A stretch of 64,000 bases of DNA from assembly GCA_964529025.1 (NCBI GenBank), contig CAZGUZ010000004.1, forward strand, positions 4,805 to 68,804, in the 5' to 3' direction. Within the stretch, counting starts at the first letter, position 1. The number at the start of each line of letters is the position of its first letter. This DNA is from an uncultured Candidatus Saccharibacteria bacterium. GTDB lineage: Bacteria; Patescibacteriota; Minisyncoccia; Phycocordibacterales; PALSA-1337. Positions 754-50,391 of the stretch are shown here, piece after piece. The notes beneath the pieces were generated by a model, which worked only from the letters and a program-made list of their open reading frames with translations, was not told where the DNA came from and made no database searches. The translations under genes and the position numbers were made by a program.

Positions 754-778
754 CTTACAAATTACAAGGGAGCAACCC

Positions 779-818
779 TCGCCGTTTTATAATGTTTGCT
801 AAAAACGGCGGGGACTTG
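779..818 (+). terminator. Rho-independent terminator hairpin (cgccgtttt...aaaacggcg)
   Basis: Inverted repeat cgccgtttt / aaaacggcg immediately after the stop of the 445-753 ORF. Confidence 0.5.
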
Positions 819-819
819 T

Positions 820-1480
820 GCGCGCACTGGGCGGGTGGGGCAAGCACAAAGAGTTACCACGAACACCGCCGAAGCCACAGAGCGAACACGAAGCAACACC
901 GAGCAGGCATCGTGAGCGGAGCGAGCGACCAGTGAGAGGTGCTTGCGAAGTGCTTGCGAAGTGTGAGCGGACTACCGAACTACCACAGAACGCGGAGACG
1001 GGAGCGCCTCGGGCCGACGCAAACGACGGAGAAAAGGCGGGCGTAAAACTGGCAAAAATGCTAAACTACACTTATAAGCCTTTTTGGAGGAGTGAAGCGG
1101 CGGCGGCAAAACCAAAAATTTCCTTCCTTTCAAATGTTCCGCTTCGCGGCGGGGGGTGTGGGGGGAGCCGCAAATAAAAATGATAGGAAATTTTTGGGTT
1201 TTGCCCCGCGCGAGCTTGTCGAGCGCGGCCGAGGCGCAAGTATCATTCGTCAAAATCCTGCGGATTTTGCCCGAAATACATTCGAACTTCGTCCAATACA
1301 CACCGCAATGATCAGAGAAGACGGCTTAATGCCGTCTGAGCTGAGCATTAACGCGCGAGAAAGTGAGATTCGAAAGCCGGAGCGCGACGGCGCGAGGCGG
1401 GGTCGCAGGCCGAACCAGTAGGTGAGGACCTGTGACCGAATCTCCCTCTCTCCGCCGTGACAATAAAGTATCAGAGTTTA
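820..1480. repeat. GC-rich non-coding region holding two copies (E0 about 880-1000; E1 about 1340-1480) of a repeated GC-rich element family
   Basis: No protein-like ORF on either strand; GC far above flanks. E1 shares gtgagattcgaaagccggagcgcgacRgcgcgaggcgggg...gtgaccRaatc with the copy at 2195-2300. E0 (gagcggagcgagcgaccagtgagaggtgcttgcgaag) resembles the copy after tRNA-Tyr at about 36060-36110. Confidence 0.5.
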
Positions 1481-2194: not shown

Positions 2195-2300
2195 AGTAGG
2201 TGTTAAATACGAGAAGGTGAGATTCGAAAGCCGGAGCGCGACAGCGCGAGGCGGGGCCGCGGGCGAATGCACCAGCGCAAGGCTCGTGACCAAATCCTCC
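2195..2300. repeat. copy E2 of the GC-rich repeated element
   Basis: gagaaggtgagattcgaaagccggagcgcgacagcgcgaggcggggccgc...cgtgaccaaatcctcctct is nearly identical over about 60 nt to 1355-1420 and shares the gtgaccRaatc tail. Confidence 0.5.
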
Positions 2301-2326
2301 TCTTTAGTGTATGTAGAATTGGTATA

Positions 2327-22170: not shown

Positions 22171-22818
22171 ATGAAAACTTTAATTTTCCCTCGGTATATT
22201 TTTACAATTTTTGCTGGTGTAGTAGCATTTATTCCTTCGGTAAGTTTTGCCGCAAATAAAACACTGAGCGATCTTACATCTCTTTTGGGTTCGTATATGC
22301 AACAAGCCATATATCTTATTATGGCTTTTGCTGTTTTAACATTCGTTTGGGGAATTTATAATTATTACCTTAAGCCCGATGCTGATAGGGGTGAAGCAAT
22401 GAATTATGTTCTGTACGGTACTATTGGCTTCTTTCTCATGTTGTCATTCTGGGGCTTGGTAAATATTATTAAGAATACACTTGATCTTGATAATACTGCA
22501 CCAAGTATCCCAGTTATTCAGTCATTACAGTTTAGATCGGGTACTCCTGGGGTTGGTTCAGGCGGTGGAACATCTGGAGTTGGTTCTGGTGGGGGTACTT
22601 CCGGTGTAGGGTCAGGGAGTTCAAATTATGTGGCACCACTTCCAAACGGCTCAACTATTAATCCTGTAACCGGACAAGGCTCAGGCGGTGGTACTCCCGG
22701 ACAAGGTTCAGGTGGTGGTACTTCTGGACAAGGCTCAGGTGGAGTGCAAGGTGGAGTGGATTATACACCACCTGCGACTGGACCACTTGATTCGGGTGAT
22801 CAGCAAATCAACTCCTAG
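22171..22818 (+). CDS. VirB2/TrbC-like pilin family protein (paralog 3) with Gly/Ser-rich repetitive C-terminal tail
   Basis: Same N-terminal architecture; tail GVGSGGGTSGVGSGGGTSGVGSGSS...GQGSGGGTPGQGSGGGTSGQGSGG encoded by DNA tandem repeats. Confidence 0.5.
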   Translation: MKTLIFPRYIFTIFAGVVAFIPSVSFAANKTLSDLTSLLGSYMQQAIYLIMAFAVLTFVWGIYNYYLKPDADRGEAMNYVLYGTIGFFLMLSFWGLVNIIKNTLDLDNTAPSIPVIQSLQFRSGTPGVGSGGGTSGVGSGGGTSGVGSGSSNYVAPLPNGSTINPVTGQGSGGGTPGQGSGGGTSGQGSGGVQGGVDYTPPATGPLDSGDQQINS

Positions 22819-22830
22819 TCTATCCCTATA

Positions 22831-23325
22831 ATGAAAACATCACTTAGTGCCATTGTTCTCGGTGTCCTTGCAGCAGTTCCTTCATTTGCTCATGCTCAGA
22901 CGCTCACAACTCTTCAGGGAGTTATTGATTATGCAGCTCGACTTGGTAATGCTATTGTTCCGATCGTTATTTCTATCGGTGTTATCTACCTCGTTATTAA
23001 TATCGTACGATGGTTTATCATTGAACCAGGTGAAGAGCGAACAGCAGCACTTTACCAGGTTCTTTGGGCAGTTCTCGGTCTTTTCCTCATCTTGTCTATC
23101 TGGGGTCTTGTGAACATTCTTCGAAATTCATTCCAAACAAATCGATCAGCTCCTACAACTGAGTTCCCAACAGTGTTTGTGCCAAATATTGGTGGCGGTG
23201 GAACAACAAGGGGATCAAGTCCTTCACCAGTATCGGGGGGTAATAGTAATTTGCAAGGAGCTGTTGATTTTACTCCCACGCAAAATAATCCACTCAATTC
23301 AGGTAATCAGCTCCTTGATTCATAG
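22831..23325 (+). CDS. VirB2/TrbC-like pilin family protein (paralog 4) with Gly-rich tail
   Basis: Signal peptide MKTSLSAIVLGVLAAVPSFAHA plus helical hairpin; first 354 nt identical to the next gene. Confidence 0.55.
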   Translation: MKTSLSAIVLGVLAAVPSFAHAQTLTTLQGVIDYAARLGNAIVPIVISIGVIYLVINIVRWFIIEPGEERTAALYQVLWAVLGLFLILSIWGLVNILRNSFQTNRSAPTTEFPTVFVPNIGGGGTTRGSSPSPVSGGNSNLQGAVDFTPTQNNPLNSGNQLLDS

Positions 23326-23397: not shown

Positions 23398-23760
23398 ATG
23401 AAAACATCACTTAGTGCCATTGTTCTCGGTGTCCTTGCAGCAGTTCCTTCATTTGCTCATGCTCAGACGCTCACAACTCTTCAGGGAGTTATTGATTATG
23501 CAGCTCGACTTGGTAATGCTATTGTTCCGATCGTTATTTCTATCGGTGTTATCTACCTCGTTATTAATATCGTACGATGGTTTATCATTGAACCAGGTGA
23601 AGAGCGAACAGCAGCACTTTACCAGGTTCTTTGGGCAGTTCTCGGTCTTTTCCTCATCTTGTCTATCTGGGGTCTTGTGAACATTCTTCGAAATTCATTC
23701 CAAACAAATCGATCAGCTCCTACAACTGAGTTCCCAACAGTGTTTGTGCCACGAATTTAA
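23398..23760 (+). CDS. truncated duplicate of paralog 4 (lacks Gly-rich tail)
   Basis: 100% nucleotide identity with 22831-23184 over 354 bp, then diverges into VPRI-stop. Confidence 0.45.
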   Translation: MKTSLSAIVLGVLAAVPSFAHAQTLTTLQGVIDYAARLGNAIVPIVISIGVIYLVINIVRWFIIEPGEERTAALYQVLWAVLGLFLILSIWGLVNILRNSFQTNRSAPTTEFPTVFVPRI

Positions 23761-23767
23761 TACAACT

Positions 23768-24076
23768 ATGAATTTAGGAGTTTTGATTGTGCATGCAGCA
23801 GCAAGCGACGAAGCTCTTAAAAAGGTGGATGCATATATTTCGGTTGTTGCAACAAATATATTAAATCCAATTATTGCTCTAGGTTTTGTAGCTGCAACAC
23901 TCCTCTTTGTTTGGGGAGTGTTTAGCTATATGAGGGGAGCTGCTGATTCTTCGGCTCGGGCAGATGGTGCACGCCATGTTTTGTGGGGTGTCATTGGTAT
24001 GGCAATTATGGTTTCTGTATATGGAATAATTAACTTTATTTCTGCGACAATGGTGAGTGTATTGGAAAAGCAGTAG
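23768..24076 (+). CDS. VirB2/TrbC-like pilin family protein (paralog 6)
   Basis: Helical-hairpin small membrane protein with the same Lx3WGxxNI-like pattern. Confidence 0.45.
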   Translation: MNLGVLIVHAAASDEALKKVDAYISVVATNILNPIIALGFVAATLLFVWGVFSYMRGAADSSARADGARHVLWGVIGMAIMVSVYGIINFISATMVSVLEKQ

Positions 24077-24094
24077 TAATAACTGATGATTTTG

Positions 24095-24160
24095 GCAAAA
24101 GAATAACCGCGCTTTATGGGCGCGGTATTTTGCTGGCCGAGTGACACGAGGTCACTCGGG
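24095..24160. terminator. two adjacent hairpins (ccgcgctttatgggcgcgg; ccgagtgacacgaggtcactcgg) between convergent transcription units
   Basis: Perfect inverted repeats; they mark the boundary between the AT-rich pilin array and the GC-rich island. Confidence 0.5.
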
Positions 24161-24673
24161 CAGTTTCTCGATCCAAATTGTCGATGCCGTTTGCACGGGC
24201 GACGACTGGTCGATCCAACACTCGAGGTATGTGGCAGGCGGGTAGTGAACCCGCTTGCTGCGGTCTCCGGGTTTGGCCCGGAGCTCGAGGTTTTCGTTTG
24301 AGTCTACATCATAGATGTAGCGACGGCTCATGTAGCCGTCCACCTGGATTACGAGCCTGAGGCCCGAGCCCAGGTGCTTCTGGTCAACCGAGAGCTTGAA
24401 GTTTACAACTCCCGGCTTAATGACGGTCGGTTGCCCGACTGAGAGCGGGTACACCGTCACGGTGTACTGCCGCTCATCGCGCTCCGTCTGACGGAATGCG
24501 ACGGTGGCGGCTTCGGCCTGGGATTCCTTGCGGATTCCCGAAACCCAAGCAGTGAGGGGCTCCTTGAGAGCTGATATGATGAGTAGTCCGACGATAATCG
24601 TCACCACCCACCGAATGATACCTACGATCTTCTTTGACGGATCGTTGGCACCTTCTTTTTTCTTGTCTGCCAT
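24152..24673 (-). CDS. hypothetical membrane-anchored protein (GC-rich island gene C; possibly NfeD-like beta-domain partner)
   Basis: N-terminal TM IIRWVVTIIVGLLIISAL then a soluble beta-rich domain; GC about 57%, unlike the host. Confidence 0.45.
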   Translation of the reverse strand: MADKKKEGANDPSKKIVGIIRWVVTIIVGLLIISALKEPLTAWVSGIRKESQAEAATVAFRQTERDERQYTVTVYPLSVGQPTVIKPGVVNFKLSVDQKHLGSGLRLVIQVDGYMSRRYIYDVDSNENLELRAKPGDRSKRVHYPPATYLECWIDQSSPVQTASTIWIEKLPE

Positions 24674-24677
24674 AGCT

Positions 24678-25745
24678 TTACGGGGTTCCTTGGTTCATGT
24701 TGACACCAGCAGGATTCAGGTCGAATGCCCGAACAACATCAGCGATTTGCTCAGGTGAACAGCCAGTTCTTGTCATGGAGGCAATGAGCGCATCGCGCCT
24801 AGCCGCATCGTCAGCTGCTGCATTCGCAAGTGACCGCCTTTGTTCGGTGAGTCTCCTCTCCATCGCTTCATCTTCTGAAGCGGTAGTGAGTGCTAGGCTA
24901 ACAATCTTGAATCTTCCCACAGCGATGCCAAGCTCAATTTGCTTAGGATCAAGTACGGTTTTCTCCCCGTAGCTGAGTTCAAGATGAGCAAGTGCCGCAG
25001 CTTGTCCAGTAGCCCCCTGAACACTGTCAGGGGTCTTCTGGGCAAACCACTGCCTCATGTAGTTGAGCACATGAAGGCGCACCTGTTCTTCGAGGTCTGG
25101 GTAACCTTTGCATTCTCCACTGAAGAATCGCTTAGCGGTGATTCCTGCAAGAGGTCGTATGACTTGGTACTGCAAAGAGAACTCCGCACTAGCAGTTCTC
25201 TGTACGAGGGTTGTTGACCCTGAGTCGGGAAGAGGTGCGGGCATAAGTGGAAATTGATCCTTAAGAACCAGCACCCTTGGCCCCACCTTGAACTTGGTTG
25301 CCACGGTTACCCATGGCGGCTTGACTGTGACAGTGACGGGCATGAACGCTCCATCTATCACTACTGGTGGACCCGTGTAGGACATAACCTTTGTCGGGTC
25401 ATCGTCTTCGATTTCCGGTATATCGAATCCCTTAAGCTCAACTGGGAAGTTAATGCCAAAAGGGTTCTGAAGTACCAGAATTTCATCTGCTTCGGGCACA
25501 ATGAGGTGCTTTCCGATGAAGAAGAAAGTTGAAATCAAAGTGACGGCCGTGAAGGATTTTGCCCCACACTTCCACCCTGAGAATCCAATAATCTCCCCCA
25601 TGGTGTTGAAGACGAATACTGCTAGCGCAGCCACAATGAGTGATGCGACTAGCGAGAGTCCTACATACCCTAGTGGGGTAGACAGGCGGTAGCCCCATTT
25701 CTGCTTGAAGCTTGCTCCCTGAGTTCTAGCTATTAATGTTGACAT
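24678..25745 (-). CDS. hypothetical membrane protein, possibly SPFH/band-7-like (GC-rich island gene B)
   Basis: Two N-terminal TM segments, a central mixed domain, and a C-terminal Ala/Arg-rich coiled coil (ERRLTEQRRSLANAAADDAARRDALIASM) reminiscent of SPFH proteins. Confidence 0.4.
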   Translation of the reverse strand: MSTLIARTQGASFKQKWGYRLSTPLGYVGLSLVASLIVAALAVFVFNTMGEIIGFSGWKCGAKSFTAVTLISTFFFIGKHLIVPEADEILVLQNPFGINFPVELKGFDIPEIEDDDPTKVMSYTGPPVVIDGAFMPVTVTVKPPWVTVATKFKVGPRVLVLKDQFPLMPAPLPDSGSTTLVQRTASAEFSLQYQVIRPLAGITAKRFFSGECKGYPDLEEQVRLHVLNYMRQWFAQKTPDSVQGATGQAAALAHLELSYGEKTVLDPKQIELGIAVGRFKIVSLALTTASEDEAMERRLTEQRRSLANAAADDAARRDALIASMTRTGCSPEQIADVVRAFDLNPAGVNMNQGTP

Positions 25746-25837
25746 GTAATGAACTTACCATTTGTTGAATGGCACCTTTCTGTATATATATTACAATATA
25801 AAATATAGAATGTCAAATATGTTAAATTATGAAAATT

Positions 25838-25866
25838 AGACAAAAGGAAAGGCGCGCCGCAAGCGG
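25838..25866. terminator. 22-nt perfect palindrome ggcgcgccgcaagcggcgcgcc with T/A runs on both sides (bidirectional terminator)
   Basis: Read directly; lies just 3' of the 25900-26601 gene. Confidence 0.55.
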
Positions 25867-25899
25867 CGCGCCGATTTTGTTGTACTACTGCCCGCACCG

Positions 25900-26601
25900 T
25901 TATTCCGGCGTGAACAGGACGATCCGAGGATCGTTACCGTCGTTCGAGATCTCAAACCTCCTGACGGGCATAGGTTTCTTCTGCCACTCGGCAAAAGGGA
26001 TTGTGCCACCGGTTTCAAGGAGGACGTTGATGACAACCCCTGGATCGGGGTCGATGTTGAATCTTACTCGATTACTGATCGTCACGGTGGCGACCTCGCC
26101 ACCGAGGAGTGAGATCGAGCCAACCTGGCTCGAGGTTGTCCAGACATACTCGAGTTGGGGCACCTTAACCTTCCTCTGCGCCTTTTCAGGCTCAGAATAT
26201 GTGCGTTCTGCACGTACCGACCCCGTTGGAGGACGGACGAGAGTAGAGCGCTCAAGGTGATGGTTCTCGTTGTCCAACTGGTCCTCCAACGCAGCGAGTT
26301 TCTTTCGAAGCTCCGCAGCGTCGCGGATTGCCGTGTCACGCGAATGTTCAATTCTCGAGACGTGGTTGGTGAGTTCGCGAATGCGGGCTTCCGAACCGCT
26401 TTCGACATCGTGCCGTCGAGGAGTTGTTGGCGAGTTCGTTGCACCGGCCGTGGTGGCCGCAGTTCGCTTCTCAGCAACCAACTGCCCCCCAAGCCAGTGC
26501 CGAACACTCGGCACGAAGAGGAGGGCGCAGGCCGTGATGATCACGAGCTTGAACCAATGAGCTTTGACGAATTTCCAAATAGCTGCCCAAATTGCTGTCA
26601 T
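25900..26601 (-). CDS. hypothetical single-pass membrane protein with coiled coil (GC-rich island gene A)
   Basis: TM LVIITACALLFVP, coiled-coil RIRELTNHVSRIEHSRDTAIRDAAELRKKLAALEDQL, C-terminal beta-rich domain; GC-rich. Confidence 0.45.
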   Translation of the reverse strand: MTAIWAAIWKFVKAHWFKLVIITACALLFVPSVRHWLGGQLVAEKRTAATTAGATNSPTTPRRHDVESGSEARIRELTNHVSRIEHSRDTAIRDAAELRKKLAALEDQLDNENHHLERSTLVRPPTGSVRAERTYSEPEKAQRKVKVPQLEYVWTTSSQVGSISLLGGEVATVTISNRVRFNIDPDPGVVINVLLETGGTIPFAEWQKKPMPVRRFEISNDGNDPRIVLFTPE

Positions 26602-26787
26602 GATTCCTTTCTGCCCGTACCTTCATGGTACGAGATCTGTTAATATCTTATCATACTTAAGCAGCAATGTCAATAGCTTGAGGTAACGTATTTAATATGA
26701 GAATCCTGCTGTTCTTTTTGCTATAAAATCTATGGTGTTAAAAAGAGTGCAGAAAAAACCGCAAATGCGGTTTAAATAATGTTAAAT

Positions 26788-26872
26788 TGGTGCTGGAGGG
26801 GAGACTCGAACTCCCACGGGTTACCCCGCTTGCTCCTAAGGCAAGTGCGTATACCAATTCCGCCACCCCAGC
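26788..26872 (-). tRNA. tRNA-Leu (anticodon TAG), CCA encoded
   Basis: Reverse complement GCTGGGGTGGCGGAATTGGTA...CTTGCCTTAGGAGCAAG...GGGAGTTCGAGTCTCCCCTCCAGCACCA; long variable arm. Confidence 0.85.
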
Positions 26873-26876
26873 AATG

Positions 26877-26949
26877 TGCTCCCAGTAGGATTCGAACCTA
26901 CGACCAATCGCTTAAGAGGCGAGTGCTCTACCAACTGAGCTATAGGAGC
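26877..26949 (-). tRNA. tRNA-Lys (anticodon CTT)
   Basis: Reverse complement GCTCCTATAGCTCAGTTGGTAGAGCACTCGCCTCTTAAGCGATTGGTCGTAGGTTCGAATCCTACTGGGAGCA. Confidence 0.85.
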
Positions 26950-26999
26950 TTGATAGAAAATATACCTTAAAACTTGATTTTGAGCAATGCTTGAGTGAC

Positions 27000-27140
27000 T
27001 GTGCTAGGGGAATTGAATGGGTGAATCGGTCACGCGTTAAAATTGCTACACAATTTTACGCTCGACCCCGCCTCCTGTGCACCGGTTCGCTACGCTCACA
27101 TCGGTGCTACAGTCCGGCTTTCGATTCCCGCCTCGGGCAC
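27000..27140 (-). repeat. copy E3 of the GC-rich repeated element, between tRNA-Leu(TAA) and tRNA-Lys on the tRNA strand
   Basis: Read on the minus strand: gtgcccgaggcgggaatcgaa-AGCCGGA-ctgtagcaccgatgtgagcgtagcgaaccggtgcacaggaggcggggtcgagcg...cgtgaccgattcaccc. The first 20 nt are a perfect inverted copy of the 3' end of tRNA-Leu(TAA). Confidence 0.5.
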
Positions 27141-27173
27141 TTAAATAAGCGCTTTCGCGCTTATAAAATACTG

Positions 27174-27255
27174 TGCCCGAGGCGGGAATCGAACCCGCAC
27201 GCCGTGAGGCCGCCGATTTTAAGTCGACTACGTATACCAGTTCCGTCACTCGGGC
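27174..27255 (-). tRNA. tRNA-Leu (anticodon TAA)
   Basis: Reverse complement GCCCGAGTGACGGAACTGGTATACGTAGTCGACTTAAAATCGGC...GCGGGTTCGATTCCCGCCTCGGGCA; long variable arm. Confidence 0.8.
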
Positions 27256-35922: not shown

Positions 35923-36008
35923 GCGCAGGTGGTAGAGTGGTCAATTACAACAGACTGTAAATCTGTCGCCTTCGGGCTACGGGGGTTCAAATCCCTCCCT
36001 GCGCACCA
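35923..36008 (+). tRNA. tRNA-Tyr (anticodon GTA), CCA encoded
   Basis: GCGCAGGTGGTAGAGTGGTCAATTACAACAGACTGTAAATCTGTCGCCTTCGGGCTACGGGGGTTCAAATCCCTCCCTGCGCACCA. Confidence 0.85.
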
Positions 36009-36012
36009 ATTA

Positions 36013-36036
36013 AAAAACCGCCCCAAGGCGGTTTTT
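36013..36036 (+). terminator. terminator hairpin aaaaaccgccccaaggcggttttt
   Basis: Stem accgcc/ggcggt with a T-run, directly after tRNA-Tyr. Confidence 0.6.
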
Positions 36037-36037
36037 A

Positions 36038-36210
36038 AGTGCGCAGGGAGGGATTTGAAAGACGGAACGAGCGCAGGCGAGCGAGTCGGGTGAGAATGTG
36101 TAGCATTCGCAAGACTCATTGAGCTCGAGTACTCGAGGGCCAATGAGTGGACAGACCCTGTAAGGGTCGCAGAAACTTTCAGCAGAAAATTATCTGTGAC
36201 CAAATCCTTG
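36038..36210 (+). repeat. copy E4 of the GC-rich repeated element; first 21 nt are a perfect inverted copy of the tRNA-Tyr 3' end
   Basis: gtgcgcagggagggatttgaa-AGACGGA-acgagcgcaggcgagcgagtcgggtgagaatgtgtagcattcgcaag...ctgtgaccaaatcc. The reverse complement of nt 36038-36058 equals ttcaaatccctccctgcgcac of the tRNA. Confidence 0.5.
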
Positions 36211-36248
36211 CATTTAAGCATGCGGCGGTATATTCTCTAGCAAGAATG

Positions 36249-36737
36249 AAACTCATAATAATGCGTCATGGAGACCATTTCGAAAATGCGCTCACTAAAT
36301 ATGGAATTGGCCAGATAACAGATCTCGGCAAGGCGCTACCGCAAATCATTGCTAGGCATGGCATTGATGTTTCAAGAGTCCTCTTTTTGGTGAGTCCACA
36401 AGGAAGGACACGTGCAACAGCTTATAGACTCGAGGCACACCTCGAGTCCTGTGGTATGCAACATTGCCAATACGAAGTCGTAGAAGTATTTGAAAGCGAG
36501 GATGATGCTGGCTACCAAAAGGCAGCAGAGCTCATCGCCGAGCGCTGTAAGCGTGAAGACTACACGTTGGTGTGGGTGGTAACCCATTTTTACCATATGG
36601 CTAACGTCCCGTATCTTGTACTGAGTCTGATGTGTGGCGAAGGTGTTGCCGACCCAGTCCAAATCTCTACAGCGTGCTGCGACCCAATCCTGATCGACAC
36701 GACTAATGGTAAGAGCTGGTATCCTCTTTGTGACTAG
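36249..36737 (+). CDS. histidine phosphatase superfamily (phosphoglycerate-mutase-like) protein
   Basis: IIMRHGD (RHG catalytic motif) and a downstream RTRATA segment. Confidence 0.55.
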   Translation, partial: KLIIMRHGDHFENALTKYGIGQITDLGKALPQIIARHGIDVSRVLFLVSPQGRTRATAYRLEAHLESCGMQHCQYEVVEVFESEDDAGYQKAAELIAERCKREDYTLVWVVTHFYHMANVPYLVLSLMCGEGVADPVQISTACCDPILIDTTNGKSWYPLCD

Positions 36738-36767
36738 AGACTGGTTCAATGTCTCACCTTGGTCTAA

Positions 36768-36797
36768 CAAAAAACCGCGCCTAGCGCGGTTTTCTTT
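36768..36797. terminator. bidirectional terminator aaaaaccgcgcctagcgcggttttctttt
   Basis: Perfect stem ccgcgc/gcgcgg between convergent genes. Confidence 0.55.
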
Positions 36798-36802
36798 TGC
36801 AA

Positions 36803-37534
36803 TTATTTCTCTGTCAACAATAGCGTATCAATAGCCGCTTTAACTGCACTATAGGGCTGCGCACCATTAATTGGTACAACCTTACCAGATTTAGTCACAA
36901 TAAAGGTAAATGGAGTACCCATGACACCAGCATTACTACCATCTTCAAGATCCGCTTGAATCTTATCAGTATGCTTTTGGCTTGCCATACACTCATTAAA
37001 CTTTGTTACATTAAGCCCAACAGTAGCAGCAATTTTAGGTAATTCATTCTGATCAAGACCACGAGGAGAATTTTGAGTTACCGCCGGAGTAACTTCATAA
37101 AGCTTATTGGTATAATTCCAGAATCCATCATTACCACCAATTTCAGCAGCACATTCAAGCGCATGAGCTTCATTACGTGCGTTGGGATGAATATTTTCAA
37201 GAGGGAAATGTCGGTACACCCAAGCAACATCACCAGACTTAGCATATTCTTCAGAAATACGCTTCATCGTACCGTGATATGTCTTACAGAAAGGACAAGA
37301 AGTGTCAGAGTACTCAACCAAGAATATTTTGGCCTGAGGATTTCCAAAAATGTGATCATTGGCAGAAATTGGAGCAATTTCACCGCTACCTGCTTGGGGA
37401 ATATTGCTGCCATCATTAACTCGTACACTGGCTCCACGCTGTGTCCACAAAACTGCACCAGCAATTAAAGCGCCAGCGACAATAATTGCCACGGGAATAG
37501 TAATTGGTTGCGAAGAAGGGGTGTGTGTTTCCAT
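36803..37534 (-). CDS. DsbA-like thiol:disulfide oxidoreductase (membrane-anchored)
   Basis: CPFC active site within a thioredoxin fold; N-terminal TM. Confidence 0.65.
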   Translation of the reverse strand: METHTPSSQPITIPVAIIVAGALIAGAVLWTQRGASVRVNDGSNIPQAGSGEIAPISANDHIFGNPQAKIFLVEYSDTSCPFCKTYHGTMKRISEEYAKSGDVAWVYRHFPLENIHPNARNEAHALECAAEIGGNDGFWNYTNKLYEVTPAVTQNSPRGLDQNELPKIAATVGLNVTKFNECMASQKHTDKIQADLEDGSNAGVMGTPFTFIVTKSGKVVPINGAQPYSAVKAAIDTLLLTEK

Positions 37535-48823: not shown

Positions 48824-50101
48824 CTAGGGAACTCGAATTCGCTTGAGGAGAGGTGAAATATGCACTGCAATATCGTAACTTAGTGTCTTTGCTTCACGAG
48901 CAATTGAATAGAGAGAGTTCTGGTGCATAAAATCTTCTCCGCTCATGACACAAACTTCATCACCTTCTTTAATAATCATAATTTGCGAAGCTAAAGTAAT
49001 ATCAATTGCAGTAATGTTCATGCTTACTCTTCCAATGATTGGGCAATAGATTTCATTAATACGAACGTTGCCATTATTAGATAATGCTCGAGGAATACCT
49101 TCGTTGTATCCAAGGGGGATTAGGGCAATTAAGCGGTCGCGCGGAGCAATGTATGTCATATTGTAACCGACACTTTCTCCAGCTTTTACTTTTTTTATAC
49201 CATAGAGCTTTGCATATACAGACATAACTAATTTAAGAGGAACAATGTCGTCGACAGTTGCACCAATGGTAAGGCCAAACATACCACCGCCAATACGTAC
49301 AACATTGGCATGTGCTTGATTTGCATAATAGGTTCCACCTGTATTACTGATATGTGTGTATTTGAGTTGCGGAGCAAAAGGCGAGAGTTCTTGTACTGCA
49401 TTATTCCATGTCGTGATTTGTTCGAGAGATTTTGTAGGATCAGCAGAATCAGAATCTGCAAAGTGTGAAGCAAAACCGTGGACGTGTATTTTTGCCTTCG
49501 GACAGACTTCCAAAAGTTCTTTGAGATCAGTAAATTCGTTCGGCTTTATGCCTTGTCGATTCATTCCTGTATCAATTTTGATGTGAATAGAAACAGGTAC
49601 GGGCTCGAATACTCGAGTTGGTTCGCCTTTGTACTCAATGCGGTACTTAATGAGGTCGCGGAAATGATCCATACTTGAAATCATGTATGAACAATGCGGA
49701 ATACTGTCATAGTGTATGGTGCGTGCCTCGGTGTAGCCGGCAATAAGGATAGGGAGGTGTGTGCTTTGTGCGCGCAAAGCTTGTGCTTCAAAAAAAGAAT
49801 CAACAACAAAGAATGGGATTTTGTCGGCAAAATTCTCGGTGAGAATTTGCGCAACAAGGGTTGCACCATGCCCGTATGCATTGCTTTTGAGTACAGGAGC
49901 AATTTTGAGCGGTTTGTCCGCCTGCGCTAAAAGTGCTGACCACGCAGAAAAATTGTGCTTAAGGGCAGATTCAGAAATGCGTACGGTAATAAGGGGAGGA
50001 AACTTGCCAGCTCGTGCCGAGCGCAGTTTATAAAATATTTGTCGCAAGTTACGACCTACGGTGTACAACCAATGTGTTATAAAAAACGGCATTTTATACA
50101 T
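48824..50101 (-). CDS. alr: alanine racemase with about 35-aa N-terminal extension encoded inside a tandem repeat
   Basis: PLP-Lys motif APVLKSNAYGHG. The ORF continues to 50200, but the first in-frame Met codons (MYKMPFF) lie at about 50101/50092. Confidence 0.75.
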   Translation of the reverse strand: MYKMPFFITHWLYTVGRNLRQIFYKLRSARAGKFPPLITVRISESALKHNFSAWSALLAQADKPLKIAPVLKSNAYGHGATLVAQILTENFADKIPFFVVDSFFEAQALRAQSTHLPILIAGYTEARTIHYDSIPHCSYMISSMDHFRDLIKYRIEYKGEPTRVFEPVPVSIHIKIDTGMNRQGIKPNEFTDLKELLEVCPKAKIHVHGFASHFADSDSADPTKSLEQITTWNNAVQELSPFAPQLKYTHISNTGGTYYANQAHANVVRIGGGMFGLTIGATVDDIVPLKLVMSVYAKLYGIKKVKAGESVGYNMTYIAPRDRLIALIPLGYNEGIPRALSNNGNVRINEIYCPIIGRVSMNITAIDITLASQIMIIKEGDEVCVMSGEDFMHQNSLYSIAREAKTLSYDIAVHISPLLKRIRVP

Positions 50102-50391
50102 AGAGAGAGTATACAAGAAGTGGGGGGATGTTGCTATTGATGTGTGGGGTTTTAGTGTTGGCAGGTTAGGGTATTGTGAGGGGATCGAGCTACCCACCAC
50201 GTGCCGAACGTAGTTTATAAAATATTTGTCGCAAGTTACGACCTACGGTGTACAACCAATGTGTTATAAAAAACGGCATTTTATACATAGAGAGAGTATA
50301 CAAGAAGTGGGGGGATGTTGCTATTGATGTGTGGGGTTTTAGTGTTGGCAGGTTAGGGTATTGTGAGGGGATCGAGCTACCCACCACGTGC
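50010..50391. repeat. 187-bp tandem direct duplication (two units, 2 mismatches) covering the alr 5' end/promoter; a third partial copy of about 40 nt at about 51120-51160
   Basis: Unit gtgccgaRcgYagtttataaaatatttgtcgcaag...gatcgagctacccaccac occurs at 50014-50200 and 50201-50387. The motif cattttataYatagagaRWKYatacaagaaKg recurs at about 51120-51160. Confidence 0.8.

What the first reader, a model, noticed from the sequence alone, without database searches (positions are those of the whole stretch)
35923..36800. tRNA-Tyr followed by terminator, inverted 21-nt copy of its own 3' end, a GC-rich repeat element (E4) and a histidine phosphatase gene: a mini-island at the tRNA 3' side
After tRNA-Tyr (ending CCA at 36008) comes a terminator hairpin (36013-36036). 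Then gtgcgcagggagggatttgaa follows, the exact reverse complement of the tRNA's last 21 nt before CCA. E4 then shares AGMCGGA and the GTGACCAAATCC tail with the other elements. A moderately GC-rich phosphoglycerate-mutase-like gene follows, closed by a bidirectional terminator. The same tRNA-3'-end, inverted copy, element order appears at tRNA-Leu(TAA). That suggests either a tRNA-targeting insertion mechanism or a conserved tRNA-trailer structure.
Basis: seen in the sequence. Interest (0 to 1): 0.7.

Follow-up and report, generated by a model that had tools for sequence, protein, structure and literature searches.

The report
Structured cassettes trailing Patescibacterial tRNA genes
The GC-rich element behind tRNA-Tyr is one copy of a large, apparently uncatalogued family of folded, RNA-like cassettes found directly after tRNA genes, almost only in genomes labelled Patescibacteria, each closed by a stem copied from the end of the neighbouring tRNA; what they do is still unknown.

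Summary
tRNA-Tyr (35923-36008) is followed by a terminator hairpin, an exact 21-nt inverted copy of tRNA positions T54-C74 (36039-36059), and a GC-rich element ending GTGACCAAATCC. tRNA-Leu(TAA) has the same layout.

E4 belongs to a family. A covariance model finds 4 copies in the window and 83 in loci that are almost all labelled Patescibacteria. It finds none in 47 non-CPR loci or 5 viral contigs, and Rfam has no match. The core is a three-way junction with strong covariation and an invariant G.U, so the tRNA-sense strand is the folded one.

The closing stem is always built from the upstream tRNA: an inverted complement (X') on the 5' side and a direct copy from the T loop onward (X) on the 3' side. 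At least one other covarying core type (B), and probably more, uses the same frame. E4 is type A with a nested type-B domain.

E4 sits at the same site in relatives and evolves about 3-4 times more slowly than the adjacent gene. Cassettes also form tandem arrays, occur as orphans, are absent from most tRNA-Tyr loci, and sometimes lie inside tRNA operons.

Best reading: a structured RNA cassette transcribed with the tRNA, whose copies multiply beside tRNA genes. The "mini-island" that includes the phosphatase-like gene is not supported.

The parts
35923..36008 (+). tRNA-Tyr(GTA), with CCA encoded
   Evidence: ARAGORN; Rfam tRNA, 61 bits
35986..36006 (+). X: tRNA segment T54-C74 (T loop, T-stem 3' strand, acceptor 3' strand, A73, C74). 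This is the segment copied in the element.
   Evidence: Inverted-repeat arm I24
36012..36036 (.). Spacer and terminator hairpin: A6 / CCGCC-CCAA-GGCGG / T5. It forms the tip of the long X:X' hairpin.
   Evidence: Direct reading. The fold of 35923-36059 gives -71.6 kcal/mol, z = -8.5, with X paired to X'.
36039..36059 (+). X': exact Watson-Crick complement of X, and the 5' strand of closing stem P1
   Evidence: I24. It is identical in L120 and L224. At G.U sites of tRNA T stems, X' follows the complement of the 3' strand in 10 of 13 informative positions.
36060..36090 (+). Type-A core, 5' part: A-GAC-GGA (P2 5' strand plus internal loop), hairpin hp1 (36067-36082), then GA-GUC-GGG (P2 3' strand plus junction)
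   Evidence: R1 hit at 36045-36121. GAC/GUC here versus GCC/GGC in other copies is a compensatory change.
36091..36165 (+). Nested type-B-like domain. It comprises a small hairpin (36094-36108), GCAA, helix Pa (36113-36121 with 36142-36149) capped by a hairpin (36125-36136), then GGACAG and hairpin Pb with a UGUAA loop (about 36155-36167).
   Evidence: It aligns with stand-alone type-B cores. Type-B helices covary in 12 of 12 pairs. The same A+B composite occurs in L045, L120 and L224, with compensatory changes in Pa.
36166..36200 (+). P3/hp2 of the type-A core: GUCGC...CAGCAG loop...GUGAC, containing the family's invariant G.U pair
   Evidence: R1 hit at 36138-36212. The pair is G.U in 78 of 83 copies.
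36201..36209 (+). Remnant of the direct copy of X (CAAAUCC plus UU), the 3' strand of P1. It pairs with 36047-36057 (about 9 bp, one of them G.U).
   Evidence: Direct reading. In other loci the copy runs on to the discriminator or beyond.
36208..36236 (+). Putative promoter of the downstream ORF (TTGCAT-17 nt-TATTCT). It is a weak consensus match but is conserved in L120 and L121.
   Evidence: Direct reading. Not called by the consensus scan.
36246..36737 (+). 163-aa ORF, weakly histidine-phosphatase-like. It is a neighbour of the cassette, not part of it.
   Evidence: Pfam His_Phos_1, E=0.035. Only 6 homologues found in the 5.8-billion-sequence non-redundant protein set. Syntenic in L120 and L121.
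36769..36798 (.). Bidirectional terminator-like hairpin between the convergent ORF163 and the DsbA-like gene (36803-37534, minus strand)
   Evidence: Direct reading; Pfam for the DsbA-like gene
27017..27140 (-). E3: type-A cassette behind tRNA-Leu(TAA) (27173-27255, minus strand). X' is 27120-27140 and the spacer hairpin is 27141-27172.
   Evidence: I14; R1 scores 55 bits. The orthologue in L054 is 93.5% identical, with a compensatory change in hp1.
1360..1448 (+). E1: orphan type-A cassette with no adjacent tRNA. Its arms resemble a tRNA-Ser 3' end.
   Evidence: R1 scores 95 bits on the plus strand versus 6 bits on the minus strand; arms compared by eye with the tRNA-Ser 3' ends listed
2214..2302 (+). 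E2: orphan type-A cassette, a paralogue of E1 including its arms (79% over 94 nt)
   Evidence: D5; R1 scores 72 bits

Best explanation
E4 is one member of an apparently uncatalogued family of small (about 90-170 nt) structured cassettes found almost only in genomes labelled Patescibacteria. They sit immediately 3' of tRNA genes on the tRNA-sense strand.

Each cassette has a conserved folded core. In E4 this is a type-A three-way junction carrying a nested type-B domain. The core is closed by a stem (P1) built from the neighbouring tRNA. The 5' strand (X') is the Watson-Crick complement of the tRNA from the T loop to about C74. The 3' strand (X) is a direct copy of the same stretch.

Most likely mechanism:
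- The cassette is transcribed as part of the tRNA transcript, either by read-through of the spacer hairpin or inside polycistronic tRNA operons. It folds as RNA.
- Its closing helix reproduces the acceptor/T-stem stack of the cognate tRNA, and in some lineages a hairpin stands where the D and anticodon arms would be. The tRNA-maturation enzymes could therefore release it as a discrete, stable RNA.
- New copies arise by duplicative recombination anchored on tRNA sequence, with the tRNA gene on one side and X on the other. X' is then kept complementary by pairing selection or palindrome correction.

Shown: the structure, the folded strand, the tRNA-derived frame, the taxonomic range, conservation at orthologous sites, and the patchy and tandem distribution.

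Inferred: transcription in this particular locus, processing by tRNA enzymes, and the way copies spread.

Unknown: the biochemical role of the cores.
For: Structure. The seed alignment is 89.6% paired, with 20 of 32 pairs changed on both sides. Across 83 copies it is 89.4% paired, with 28 of 32 pairs changed on both sides, 0 of 500 shuffles reaching the observed value, and slid controls at 36-42%. That 83-copy alignment was fitted to the model, so it leans towards the structure. The type-B core covaries in 12 of 12 pairs.

Strand. One pair is G.U in 78 of 83 copies. Overall there are 186 G.U against 49 A.C pairs, on the same model-fitted alignment. E1 scores 95 bits on the tRNA-sense strand and 6 bits on the other.

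Frame.
- 58 type-A pattern matches have a same-strand tRNA within 300 nt upstream; 53 of these lie within 100 nt, mostly 18-88 nt. They span 27 anticodon types.
- The direct repeat starts at C56 and runs to the tRNA end.
- X' follows the complement of the tRNA 3' strand at 10 of 13 informative G.U sites.

Transcription. 5 of 74 cassettes are followed within 9-29 nt by the next same-strand tRNA. In four of them the gap is 19 nt or less, which leaves no room for a promoter.

Selection.
- The 3' half of E4 is 92.7% identical to L121, against 71% for the adjacent ORF DNA.
- Full-length E4 is 97.7% identical to L120, against 90.7% for the ORF.
- E3 and L054 differ by a compensatory pair.

Range. 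There were no R1 hits in 47 non-CPR loci (357 kb) or in 5 viral contigs. Rfam gave no hit in five searches.

Duplicative behaviour.
- Tandem arrays of different core types occur behind one tRNA.
- Orphan copies E1 and E2 share their arms.
- At least 22 of 104 tRNA-Tyr loci are filled and most are empty.
- By eye, cores look more alike within a lineage across different tRNAs than across lineages at the same tRNA.
Against: - E4 and E3 lie after good terminator hairpins and have no visible promoter of their own. Transcription in this genome would therefore depend on read-through.
- No expression data exist.
- G.T pairs are also tolerated in folded single-stranded DNA, so an ssDNA structure is not excluded.
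- In a read-through RNA, the 21-bp X:X' pairing would compete with the tRNA cloverleaf. That looks harmful rather than useful.
- In E3 and E4 the 3' copy of X has decayed to 6-9 nt while X' is still perfect. The tRNA-like closing helix is therefore not intact in this genome.
- High copy number and tandem arrays are more typical of selfish repeats than of functional RNA genes.
- The proposed spread by tRNA-anchored recombination does not by itself explain how a cassette acquires the arms of a different tRNA.
Confidence: 0.5

Rival explanations
1. A non-autonomous integrative DNA element, a miniature of the islands that integrate into tRNA genes at the T loop. The direct copy of the tRNA 3' part would be the att repeat. 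The unit [X-spacer-X'-core] would be moved by a recombinase encoded elsewhere, and the conserved fold would be the single-stranded DNA or hairpin form that this enzyme recognises.
For: - The direct repeat begins in the T loop and runs to the tRNA 3' end, sometimes beyond by up to 58 nt. From my own knowledge, this is the classical signature of integration at that sublocation.
- Tandem units each carry their own, different spacer or terminator, as expected from successive integrations at the regenerated tRNA (L186, L045).
- The element is present in some tRNA-Tyr loci and absent in others.
- In L121, about 1 kb of foreign DNA lies exactly at the 3' edge of the element.
Against: - No integrase or transposase family recurs near 70 cassette-bearing loci. 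No such family was recognisable among the 25 largest neighbour clusters, which were judged by eye from their leading sequences and not annotated with Pfam. None lies in the E4 neighbourhood either.
- One recombinase would have to accept at least 27 different att sequences.
- The start of the repeat depends on the core type: C56 for type A, and about T60 for type B.
- The inverted copy X' is not explained by this model.
- Sequence conservation at orthologous sites exceeds that of neighbouring genes.
- GNRA-type loops and the G.U asymmetry point to RNA.
- Cassettes occur inside tRNA operons.
- None was found in the five viral contigs that matched the sequence pattern.
Confidence: 0.22
2. The functional unit is the long hairpin X-terminator-X', not the core. 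It would act as a read-through sensor, as at the lambda sib site. Only transcripts that pass the terminator can form the 21-bp extension, which would mark them for RNase III cleavage and decay. That would insulate downstream genes and remove faulty tRNA precursors.
For: - The read-through RNA folds into a hairpin of about 32 bp that unfolds the tRNA (-71.6 kcal/mol, z = -8.5).
- The same 21-nt, 32-nt-spacer geometry occurs at two unrelated tRNAs.
- In several 'empty' tRNA-Tyr loci, the terminator stem also extends into the acceptor 3' strand (L137, L138, L172, L174).
Against: - It does not explain the conserved, covarying cores, the direct copy X, the orphan copies, or the tandem arrays.
- In most loci X' covers only 9-15 nt, or is split by an extra hairpin.
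- In L154, a perfect 21-nt X' lies about 250 nt from the tRNA and pairs with its own X instead.
Confidence: 0.1
3. A mini genomic island made of E4 plus the phosphatase-like gene, inserted at the 3' side of tRNA-Tyr.
For: - A T-loop-like sequence plus a similar terminator follows the ORF at 36742-36793 (local alignment score 42 against a shuffled maximum of 24).
- The ORF is rare, with 6 homologues, and is somewhat more GC-rich than its surroundings.
Against: - The supposed relic is not conserved in the close relative L120. Much of the alignment score comes from the generic T loop and from this genome's generic terminator shape.
- The cassette frame closes at 36209, before the ORF.
- The ORF keeps its own conserved putative promoter in L120 and L121. 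In L121 another gene separates it from the element.
- Across the family, cassettes occur without any such gene.
Confidence: 0.04

Closest known systems
Genomic islands and cis-mobilisable elements integrated at the T-loop sublocation of tRNA genes (tyrosine-recombinase att sites; my own knowledge, for example Williams 2002, NAR)
   Same: There is a direct repeat of the tRNA from the T loop to the 3' end. The tRNA stays intact. Units accrete in tandem at the same tRNA. Presence is patchy among relatives.
   Different: The content is only about 100-170 nt and has no genes. No recombinase was found. Many different tRNAs carry the same core. An additional inverted copy of the tRNA end is present. 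The interior is a covarying three-way junction conserved across the phylum.
REP/BIME and MITE-type structured intergenic repeats (my own knowledge)
   Same: They are short, GC-rich, multi-copy and hairpin-forming. They lie after terminators between genes, form tandem clusters, and have one preferred strand.
   Different: The terminal inverted repeats are not fixed sequences. They are re-templated on the adjacent tRNA. There is no target-site duplication. The fold is complex and branched, with GNRA-type loops. No associated RAYT or transposase was seen.
ncRNAs expressed in tandem with a tRNA and released by tRNA-processing enzymes (plant dicistronic tRNA-snoRNA genes, MALAT1 mascRNA), and tRNA top-half mimics (tmRNA tRNA-like domain, viral TLS, bacterial YrlA; my own knowledge)
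   Same: The cassette lies downstream of, or between, tRNA genes on the same strand. Its closing helix reproduces an acceptor stem stacked on a T stem. In Paceibacteria, one hairpin stands in place of the D and anticodon arms.
   Different: The T loop is replaced by an extended helix plus the core. The helix usually also pairs N73 and C74, so no free NCCA is evident. The mimic copies whichever tRNA is next to it. Processing has not been tested.
Lambda sib / tI retroregulation (my own knowledge)
   Same: A terminator hairpin becomes part of a much longer duplex only in read-through RNA.
   Different: Here the extra arm is the mature 3' half of a tRNA, and the arrangement is tied to a conserved downstream core.
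Group I introns in Patescibacterial tRNA genes (PMC13011429)
   Same: The host phylum is the same, and both are structured RNA elements associated with tRNA genes.
   Different: Those introns interrupt the anticodon loop and match Rfam group I models. The cassettes lie outside the intact tRNA and match no Rfam model.

Membership tests
Any Rfam 15 family (ribozymes, riboswitches, tRNA-like RNAs, group I/II introns) | A score at or near the family's gathering threshold | tested here: not met
   Only tRNA hits pass the gathering threshold. Permissive scans of E4, E1 and 11 related loci give nothing better than chance miRNA or sX4 matches.
tRNA-targeting integrative element | A direct repeat of the tRNA 3' segment bounding the element | tested here: met
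   Repeats of 15-58 nt starting at C56 occur in most type-A loci. In E4 only 7-9 nt remain.
tRNA-targeting integrative element | An integrase or recombinase encoded in the element or consistently nearby | tested here: not met
   The neighbours of E4 are ClpB, a 163-aa ORF, a DsbA-like gene and AhpC. Clustering 673 ORFs from 70 cassette loci gave no cluster recognisable as a recombinase among the 25 largest, judged by eye without Pfam annotation.
tRNA-targeting integrative element | Empty and filled alleles of the same site | tested here: inconclusive
   By a strict 9-nt criterion, 82 of 104 tRNA-Tyr loci lack X'. These are distant relatives, however. The close relatives L120, L224 and L121 all carry E4, and L200 carries a truncated copy.
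MITE / REP-like repeat | Fixed terminal inverted repeats plus a target-site duplication (MITE), or an associated RAYT (REP) | tested here: not met
   Arm sequences change with the adjacent tRNA. The flanks of the core are inverted complements, not direct repeats (E4: ATTTGAA...CAAAT). No duplication flanks E1 or E2.
tRNA-like structure (tmRNA tRNA-like domain, viral TLS, YrlA) | An acceptor stem plus a T arm with a genuine T loop and a free NCCA 3' end | tested here: not met
   The T loop is replaced by its complement paired to the copy, plus the core. X' usually also pairs N73 and C74. ARAGORN calls no tRNA or tmRNA there.
Retroelement primer-binding site | Complementarity to the 3' terminus of the mature tRNA including CCA, with a reverse transcriptase nearby | tested here: not met
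   Complementarity stops at C74 in both E3 and E4. The next bases are AA, not GG/T. No reverse transcriptase is in the neighbourhood.
sib-type retroregulatory hairpin | A terminator embedded in a longer stem that forms only on read-through | tested here: met
   Fold of 35923-36059. RNase III cleavage cannot be tested with these tools.
Histidine phosphatase superfamily (ORF 36246-36737) | A Pfam His_Phos_1 match above the cut-off, with the catalytic RHG motif | tested here: inconclusive
   E=0.035 and 14.2 bits against a cut-off of 21.7, covering only residues 5-67. The RHG motif is present.

The most novel reading that the evidence does not exclude
These cassettes are a new class of modular structured RNAs whose closing helix is templated on the neighbouring tRNA. 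This 'tRNA frame' would let unrelated RNA cores (types A, B and others) be expressed from tRNA transcripts, excised by the tRNA-processing machinery, and copied from one tRNA gene to another. In effect it would be an RNA-cassette system at tRNA genes, specific to the candidate phyla radiation, with the cores acting as ribozymes or protein- or ligand-binding RNAs that are not yet recognised.
Probability: 0.4. Interest if true: 0.85.

Novelty: categorically new. Interest (0 to 1): 0.74.

Why it matters
Patescibacteria have tiny, streamlined genomes. Even so, at least about a fifth of the tRNA-Tyr loci sampled, almost all from this group, carry one or more of these conserved, covarying elements.

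If the cassettes are RNAs, they add several new structured RNA classes from a phylum that is poorly represented in RNA catalogues. They also show a previously unseen design principle: a stem re-templated on the adjacent tRNA.

If they are mobile DNA, they are a new kind of gene-less element that targets tRNA genes.

Either way, they are a ready-made comparative dataset of hundreds of copies with several core types. They offer a testable link between tRNA processing and small-RNA biogenesis. They are also a practical caveat for tRNA annotation, island detection and att-site detection in these genomes.

Tried and rejected
1. Known RNA families. Five Rfam searches, including permissive ones, found nothing.

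2. Phage origin. The core pattern hit 5 viral contigs, but none matched the covariance model.

3. An associated recombinase. Clustering all ORFs near 70 cassettes gave no cluster recognisable as a recombinase among the 25 largest.

4. A relic tRNA end after ORF163 as the far boundary of an island. The alignment is significant against shuffles but is not conserved in L120, and it is driven by generic T-loop and terminator features.

5. X' as the 5' strands of a tandemly duplicated tRNA. Rejected because at G.U sites X' follows the complement of the 3' strand, 10 to 2. Its distal 7 nt are also the complement of the T loop, not a T loop.

6. A retroviral-type primer-binding site. Complementarity stops at C74.

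7. A group II intron 5' end. The GUGCG is simply the complement of GCAC.

8. The type-B hairpin loop CUGUAAG as a tRNA-Tyr anticodon mimic. The same GUA(A) loop occurs behind Glu, Lys, Leu, Val and Cys tRNAs, so it is better read as a GNRA-type loop.

9. Target-site duplication. The flanks are inverted, not direct.

10. Enrichment of CCA after the X copy as evidence for an RNA-templated origin. CCA follows 11 of 74 X copies against 8 of 74 genes, which is not convincing.

11. Literature. Six full-text searches and three papers checked gave no description of these elements. Two further searches returned no results: one search had no papers matching all terms, and one search failed on a term-syntax error.
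Full report
**What is in the sequence.** tRNA-Tyr(GTA) occupies 35923-36008. It is followed by a hairpin at 36012-36036 with an A-tract and a T-tract. After two more bases comes GTGCGCAGGGAGGGATTTGAA (36039-36059). This is the exact reverse complement of 35986-36006, which is tRNA positions T54 to C74 (I24). The GC-rich stretch from 36060 to 36209 begins AGACGGA and ends GTGACCAAATCC-TT. The same geometry (21/21 nt, 32-nt spacer holding a hairpin) is found at tRNA-Leu(TAA) on the other strand (I14). Two more related elements, E1 and E2, lie at 1360-1448 and 2214-2302 with no tRNA beside them. The window has about 41% GC. Its neighbours are ClpB, a DsbA-like protein and AhpC. The closest relatives found are labelled Saccharibacteria.

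**It is a family, found almost only in Patescibacteria.** A pattern taken from the shared core (GAAAGCCGGA...GAGGCGGGG) was scanned over one genome per species.
- About 70 of the loci it returned are almost all labelled Patescibacteria: Saccharibacteria, Paceibacteria/Parcubacteria groups, and WWE3. Three MAGs are labelled Elusimicrobia and one Gammaproteobacteria.
- A further 47 loci come from GC-rich unrelated genomes.
- Covariance model R1, built from 12 copies, finds 83 copies in the first set and the window.
- R1 finds none in the 47 unrelated loci and none in the five viral contigs that matched the pattern.
- Five Rfam searches, including permissive ones on E4, E1 and 11 related loci, found only tRNAs and chance matches.
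- Full-text searches and three checked papers gave no description of such elements. One of those papers covers group I introns in Patescibacterial tRNA genes.

**Structure of the type-A core.** It is a three-way junction.
- P1 is the closing stem. It is followed by AAA.
- P2 is GCC/GGC, interrupted by a GGA/GA internal loop and capped by a variable hairpin. It is followed by GGG.
- P3 is GUCGC.../...GUGAC with a variable tip, and runs straight back into P1.
- Over the 83 copies, 89% of cells pair and 28 of 32 pairs show changes on both sides. No shuffle of 500 reaches this, and sliding the partners drops pairing to 36-42%. This alignment was fitted to the model; the independent seed alignment gives the same picture.
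- E4's AGACGGA...GAGUCGGG, against AGCCGGA...GAGGCGGGG elsewhere, is itself a compensatory C:G to A:U change.
- One pair is G.U in 78 of 83 copies. G.U pairs outnumber A.C pairs 186 to 49. E1 scores 95 bits on the tRNA-sense strand and 6 bits on the opposite strand.
- The folded molecule is therefore the tRNA-sense strand, as RNA or, less likely, as single-stranded DNA.

**The tRNA-derived frame.**
- 58 type-A pattern matches have a same-strand tRNA within 300 nt upstream. For 53 of them the tRNA ends within 100 nt, mostly 18-88 nt. They cover 27 different anticodons.
- The 5' strand of P1 (X') always ends ...TCGAA, the complement of the start of that tRNA's T loop. It extends 9-21 nt into the complement of the T stem and acceptor 3' strand.
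- The 3' strand (X) is a direct copy of the tRNA from C56 to the discriminator or C74. In some loci it continues through the spacer, up to 58 nt.
- Where the tRNA T stem has a G.U pair, X' carries the Watson-Crick complement of the 3' strand rather than the tRNA's own 5' strand (10 versus 2 informative positions). It is therefore an inverted copy or a pairing-selected strand, not a duplicated tRNA 5' half.
- In Paceibacteria, X' is split exactly at the acceptor/T-stem boundary by a hairpin with a conserved AACUGCUU loop. The element then looks like a tRNA top half with one arm in place of the D and anticodon arms, and the core in place of the T loop.
- The flanks of the core are inverted complements, not direct repeats. 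This is unambiguous for the non-palindromic TTCAAAT loop of tRNA-Tyr. There is no target-site duplication.

**Other cores use the same frame, and E4 is a composite.** A scan of all tRNAs in the loci for an X' found further cassettes whose cores differ.
- The commonest, type B, has a helix Pa, a GUAUACUG-like linker, and a hairpin with a GUAA-type loop. It covaries in 12 of 12 pairs.
- E4's extra 75 nt (36091-36165), lying between GAGUCGGG and GUCGC, aligns with type B.
- The same A+B composite occurs in L045, with compensatory changes in Pa.

**Conserved and probably functional, but also duplicative.**
- E4 is at the same site in L120 and L224 (near-identical genomes) and in L121. L200 keeps only its 3' half.
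- The 3' half of E4 is 92.7% identical between the window and L121, where the adjacent ORF's DNA is 71% identical. Full-length E4 is 97.7% identical to L120, against 90.7% for the ORF.
- E3 and its orthologue in L054 differ by a compensatory pair in hp1.
- An unbiased sample of tRNA-Tyr loci was taken by a metagenome scan with the tRNA's 5' half. At least 22 of 104 loci have a cassette, of several core types. Most loci are empty.
- Some loci carry arrays of two to four cassettes of different types, each with its own spacer (L154, L186, L226, L239, L045).
- E1 and E2 are orphan paralogues that share tRNA-Ser-like arms.
- By eye, cores resemble each other within a lineage across different tRNAs more than across lineages at the same tRNA.
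- No recombinase or transposase family was recognisable among the 25 largest neighbour clusters near 70 cassette loci.

**Evidence on transcription.**
- In this window, E3 and E4 lie between a terminator hairpin and the next gene's promoter, and have no obvious promoter of their own.
- Elsewhere, 5 of 74 cassettes are followed within 9-29 nt by the next same-strand tRNA. In four of them the gap is 19 nt or less (L119, L203, L184, L097). These cassettes must be part of polycistronic tRNA precursors.
- A read-through transcript of tRNA-Tyr through X' would fold into a hairpin of about 32 bp at the expense of the cloverleaf.
- In L154, a perfect X' lies about 250 nt from the tRNA and pairs with its own intact X. 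X' is therefore primarily the partner of X.

**The phosphatase-like gene is a neighbour, not cargo.**
- ORF 36246-36737 has only six homologues and a sub-threshold His_Phos_1 match.
- The cassette frame closes at 36209.
- The ORF is preceded by a putative promoter, TTGCAT-17-TATTCT. It is a weak consensus match but is conserved in L120 and L121.
- In L121, about 1 kb carrying another ORF lies between the cassette and this promoter.
- A T-loop-like sequence plus terminator after the ORF is not conserved in L120 and is largely generic.

**Interpretation.** The best-supported reading (confidence about 0.5) is a structured RNA cassette transcribed with the tRNA. Its closing helix copies the acceptor/T-stem stack of its tRNA, and its copies multiply next to tRNA genes by recombination anchored on tRNA sequence. 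The role of the cores is unknown. Processing by RNase P, RNase Z or the CCA-adding enzyme is inferred from shape and position only.

The rivals are:
- a gene-less integrative DNA element using the T loop as its att site (about 0.22);
- a sib-like read-through sensor formed by X-terminator-X' (about 0.1);

No known family passed a membership test. The nearest analogues each share only part of the anatomy.

Noticed in passing
window 770-1350: A GC-rich non-coding stretch of about 580 nt lies between the terminator of ORF 412-753 and E1. It contains GAGCGGAGCGAGCGA-like motifs that recur in cassette hairpin tips, but it matches neither Rfam nor model R1.
   Followed up: partly
window 22831-23130 and 23398-23697: A 300-nt direct repeat, 100% identical, covers the starts of two adjacent ORFs (D1). 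A glycine-rich repeat lies just upstream at 22528-22739.
   Followed up: no
window 49992-50365: A tandem duplication of a 187-nt unit, 95% identical (D2).
   Followed up: no
all fetched loci: The sampled tRNA genes, mostly Patescibacterial, usually read C-A-A after the discriminator (125 of 330). Only 84 of 330 encode CCA. The A-tract of the terminator starts at position 75.
   Followed up: partly
L137, L138, L172, L174 (tRNA-Tyr loci without a cassette): The terminator hairpin is a long, perfect palindrome whose stem extends 6-10 nt into the acceptor 3' strand of the tRNA. It is a cassette-free version of the X-terminator-X' arrangement.
   Followed up: partly
L121 110-1145: About 1 kb carrying a 197-aa ORF of unknown function is inserted exactly at the 3' edge of the E4 homologue (after CAAATCCTTG). 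It lies upstream of the conserved promoter of the ORF163 homologue.
   Followed up: no
L024, L034, L087, L102, L107, L116, L117, L119 and many tRNA-Tyr loci: A hairpin with a conserved AACUGCUU loop splits X' at the acceptor/T-stem boundary in Paceibacterial cassettes. It occurs whatever the core type or tRNA.
   Followed up: partly
L239, L226, L154, L186, L045: Arrays of two to four cassettes of different core types lie behind a single tRNA gene. Some have decayed or truncated frames.
   Followed up: partly
window 24000-27000: GC content is 0.49-0.53 against a window average of about 0.41. The stretch spans ORFs on the minus strand just upstream of the tRNA cluster.
   Followed up: no
L045 112-278, L081 5903-6050, L104 1562-1761, L038 2802-2972: Sub-threshold matches (36-57 bits, gathering score 70) to the Rfam sRNA family sX4 span a class-II tRNA plus its downstream hairpin. 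The model probably contains a tRNA, so this is not evidence of homology.
   Followed up: no
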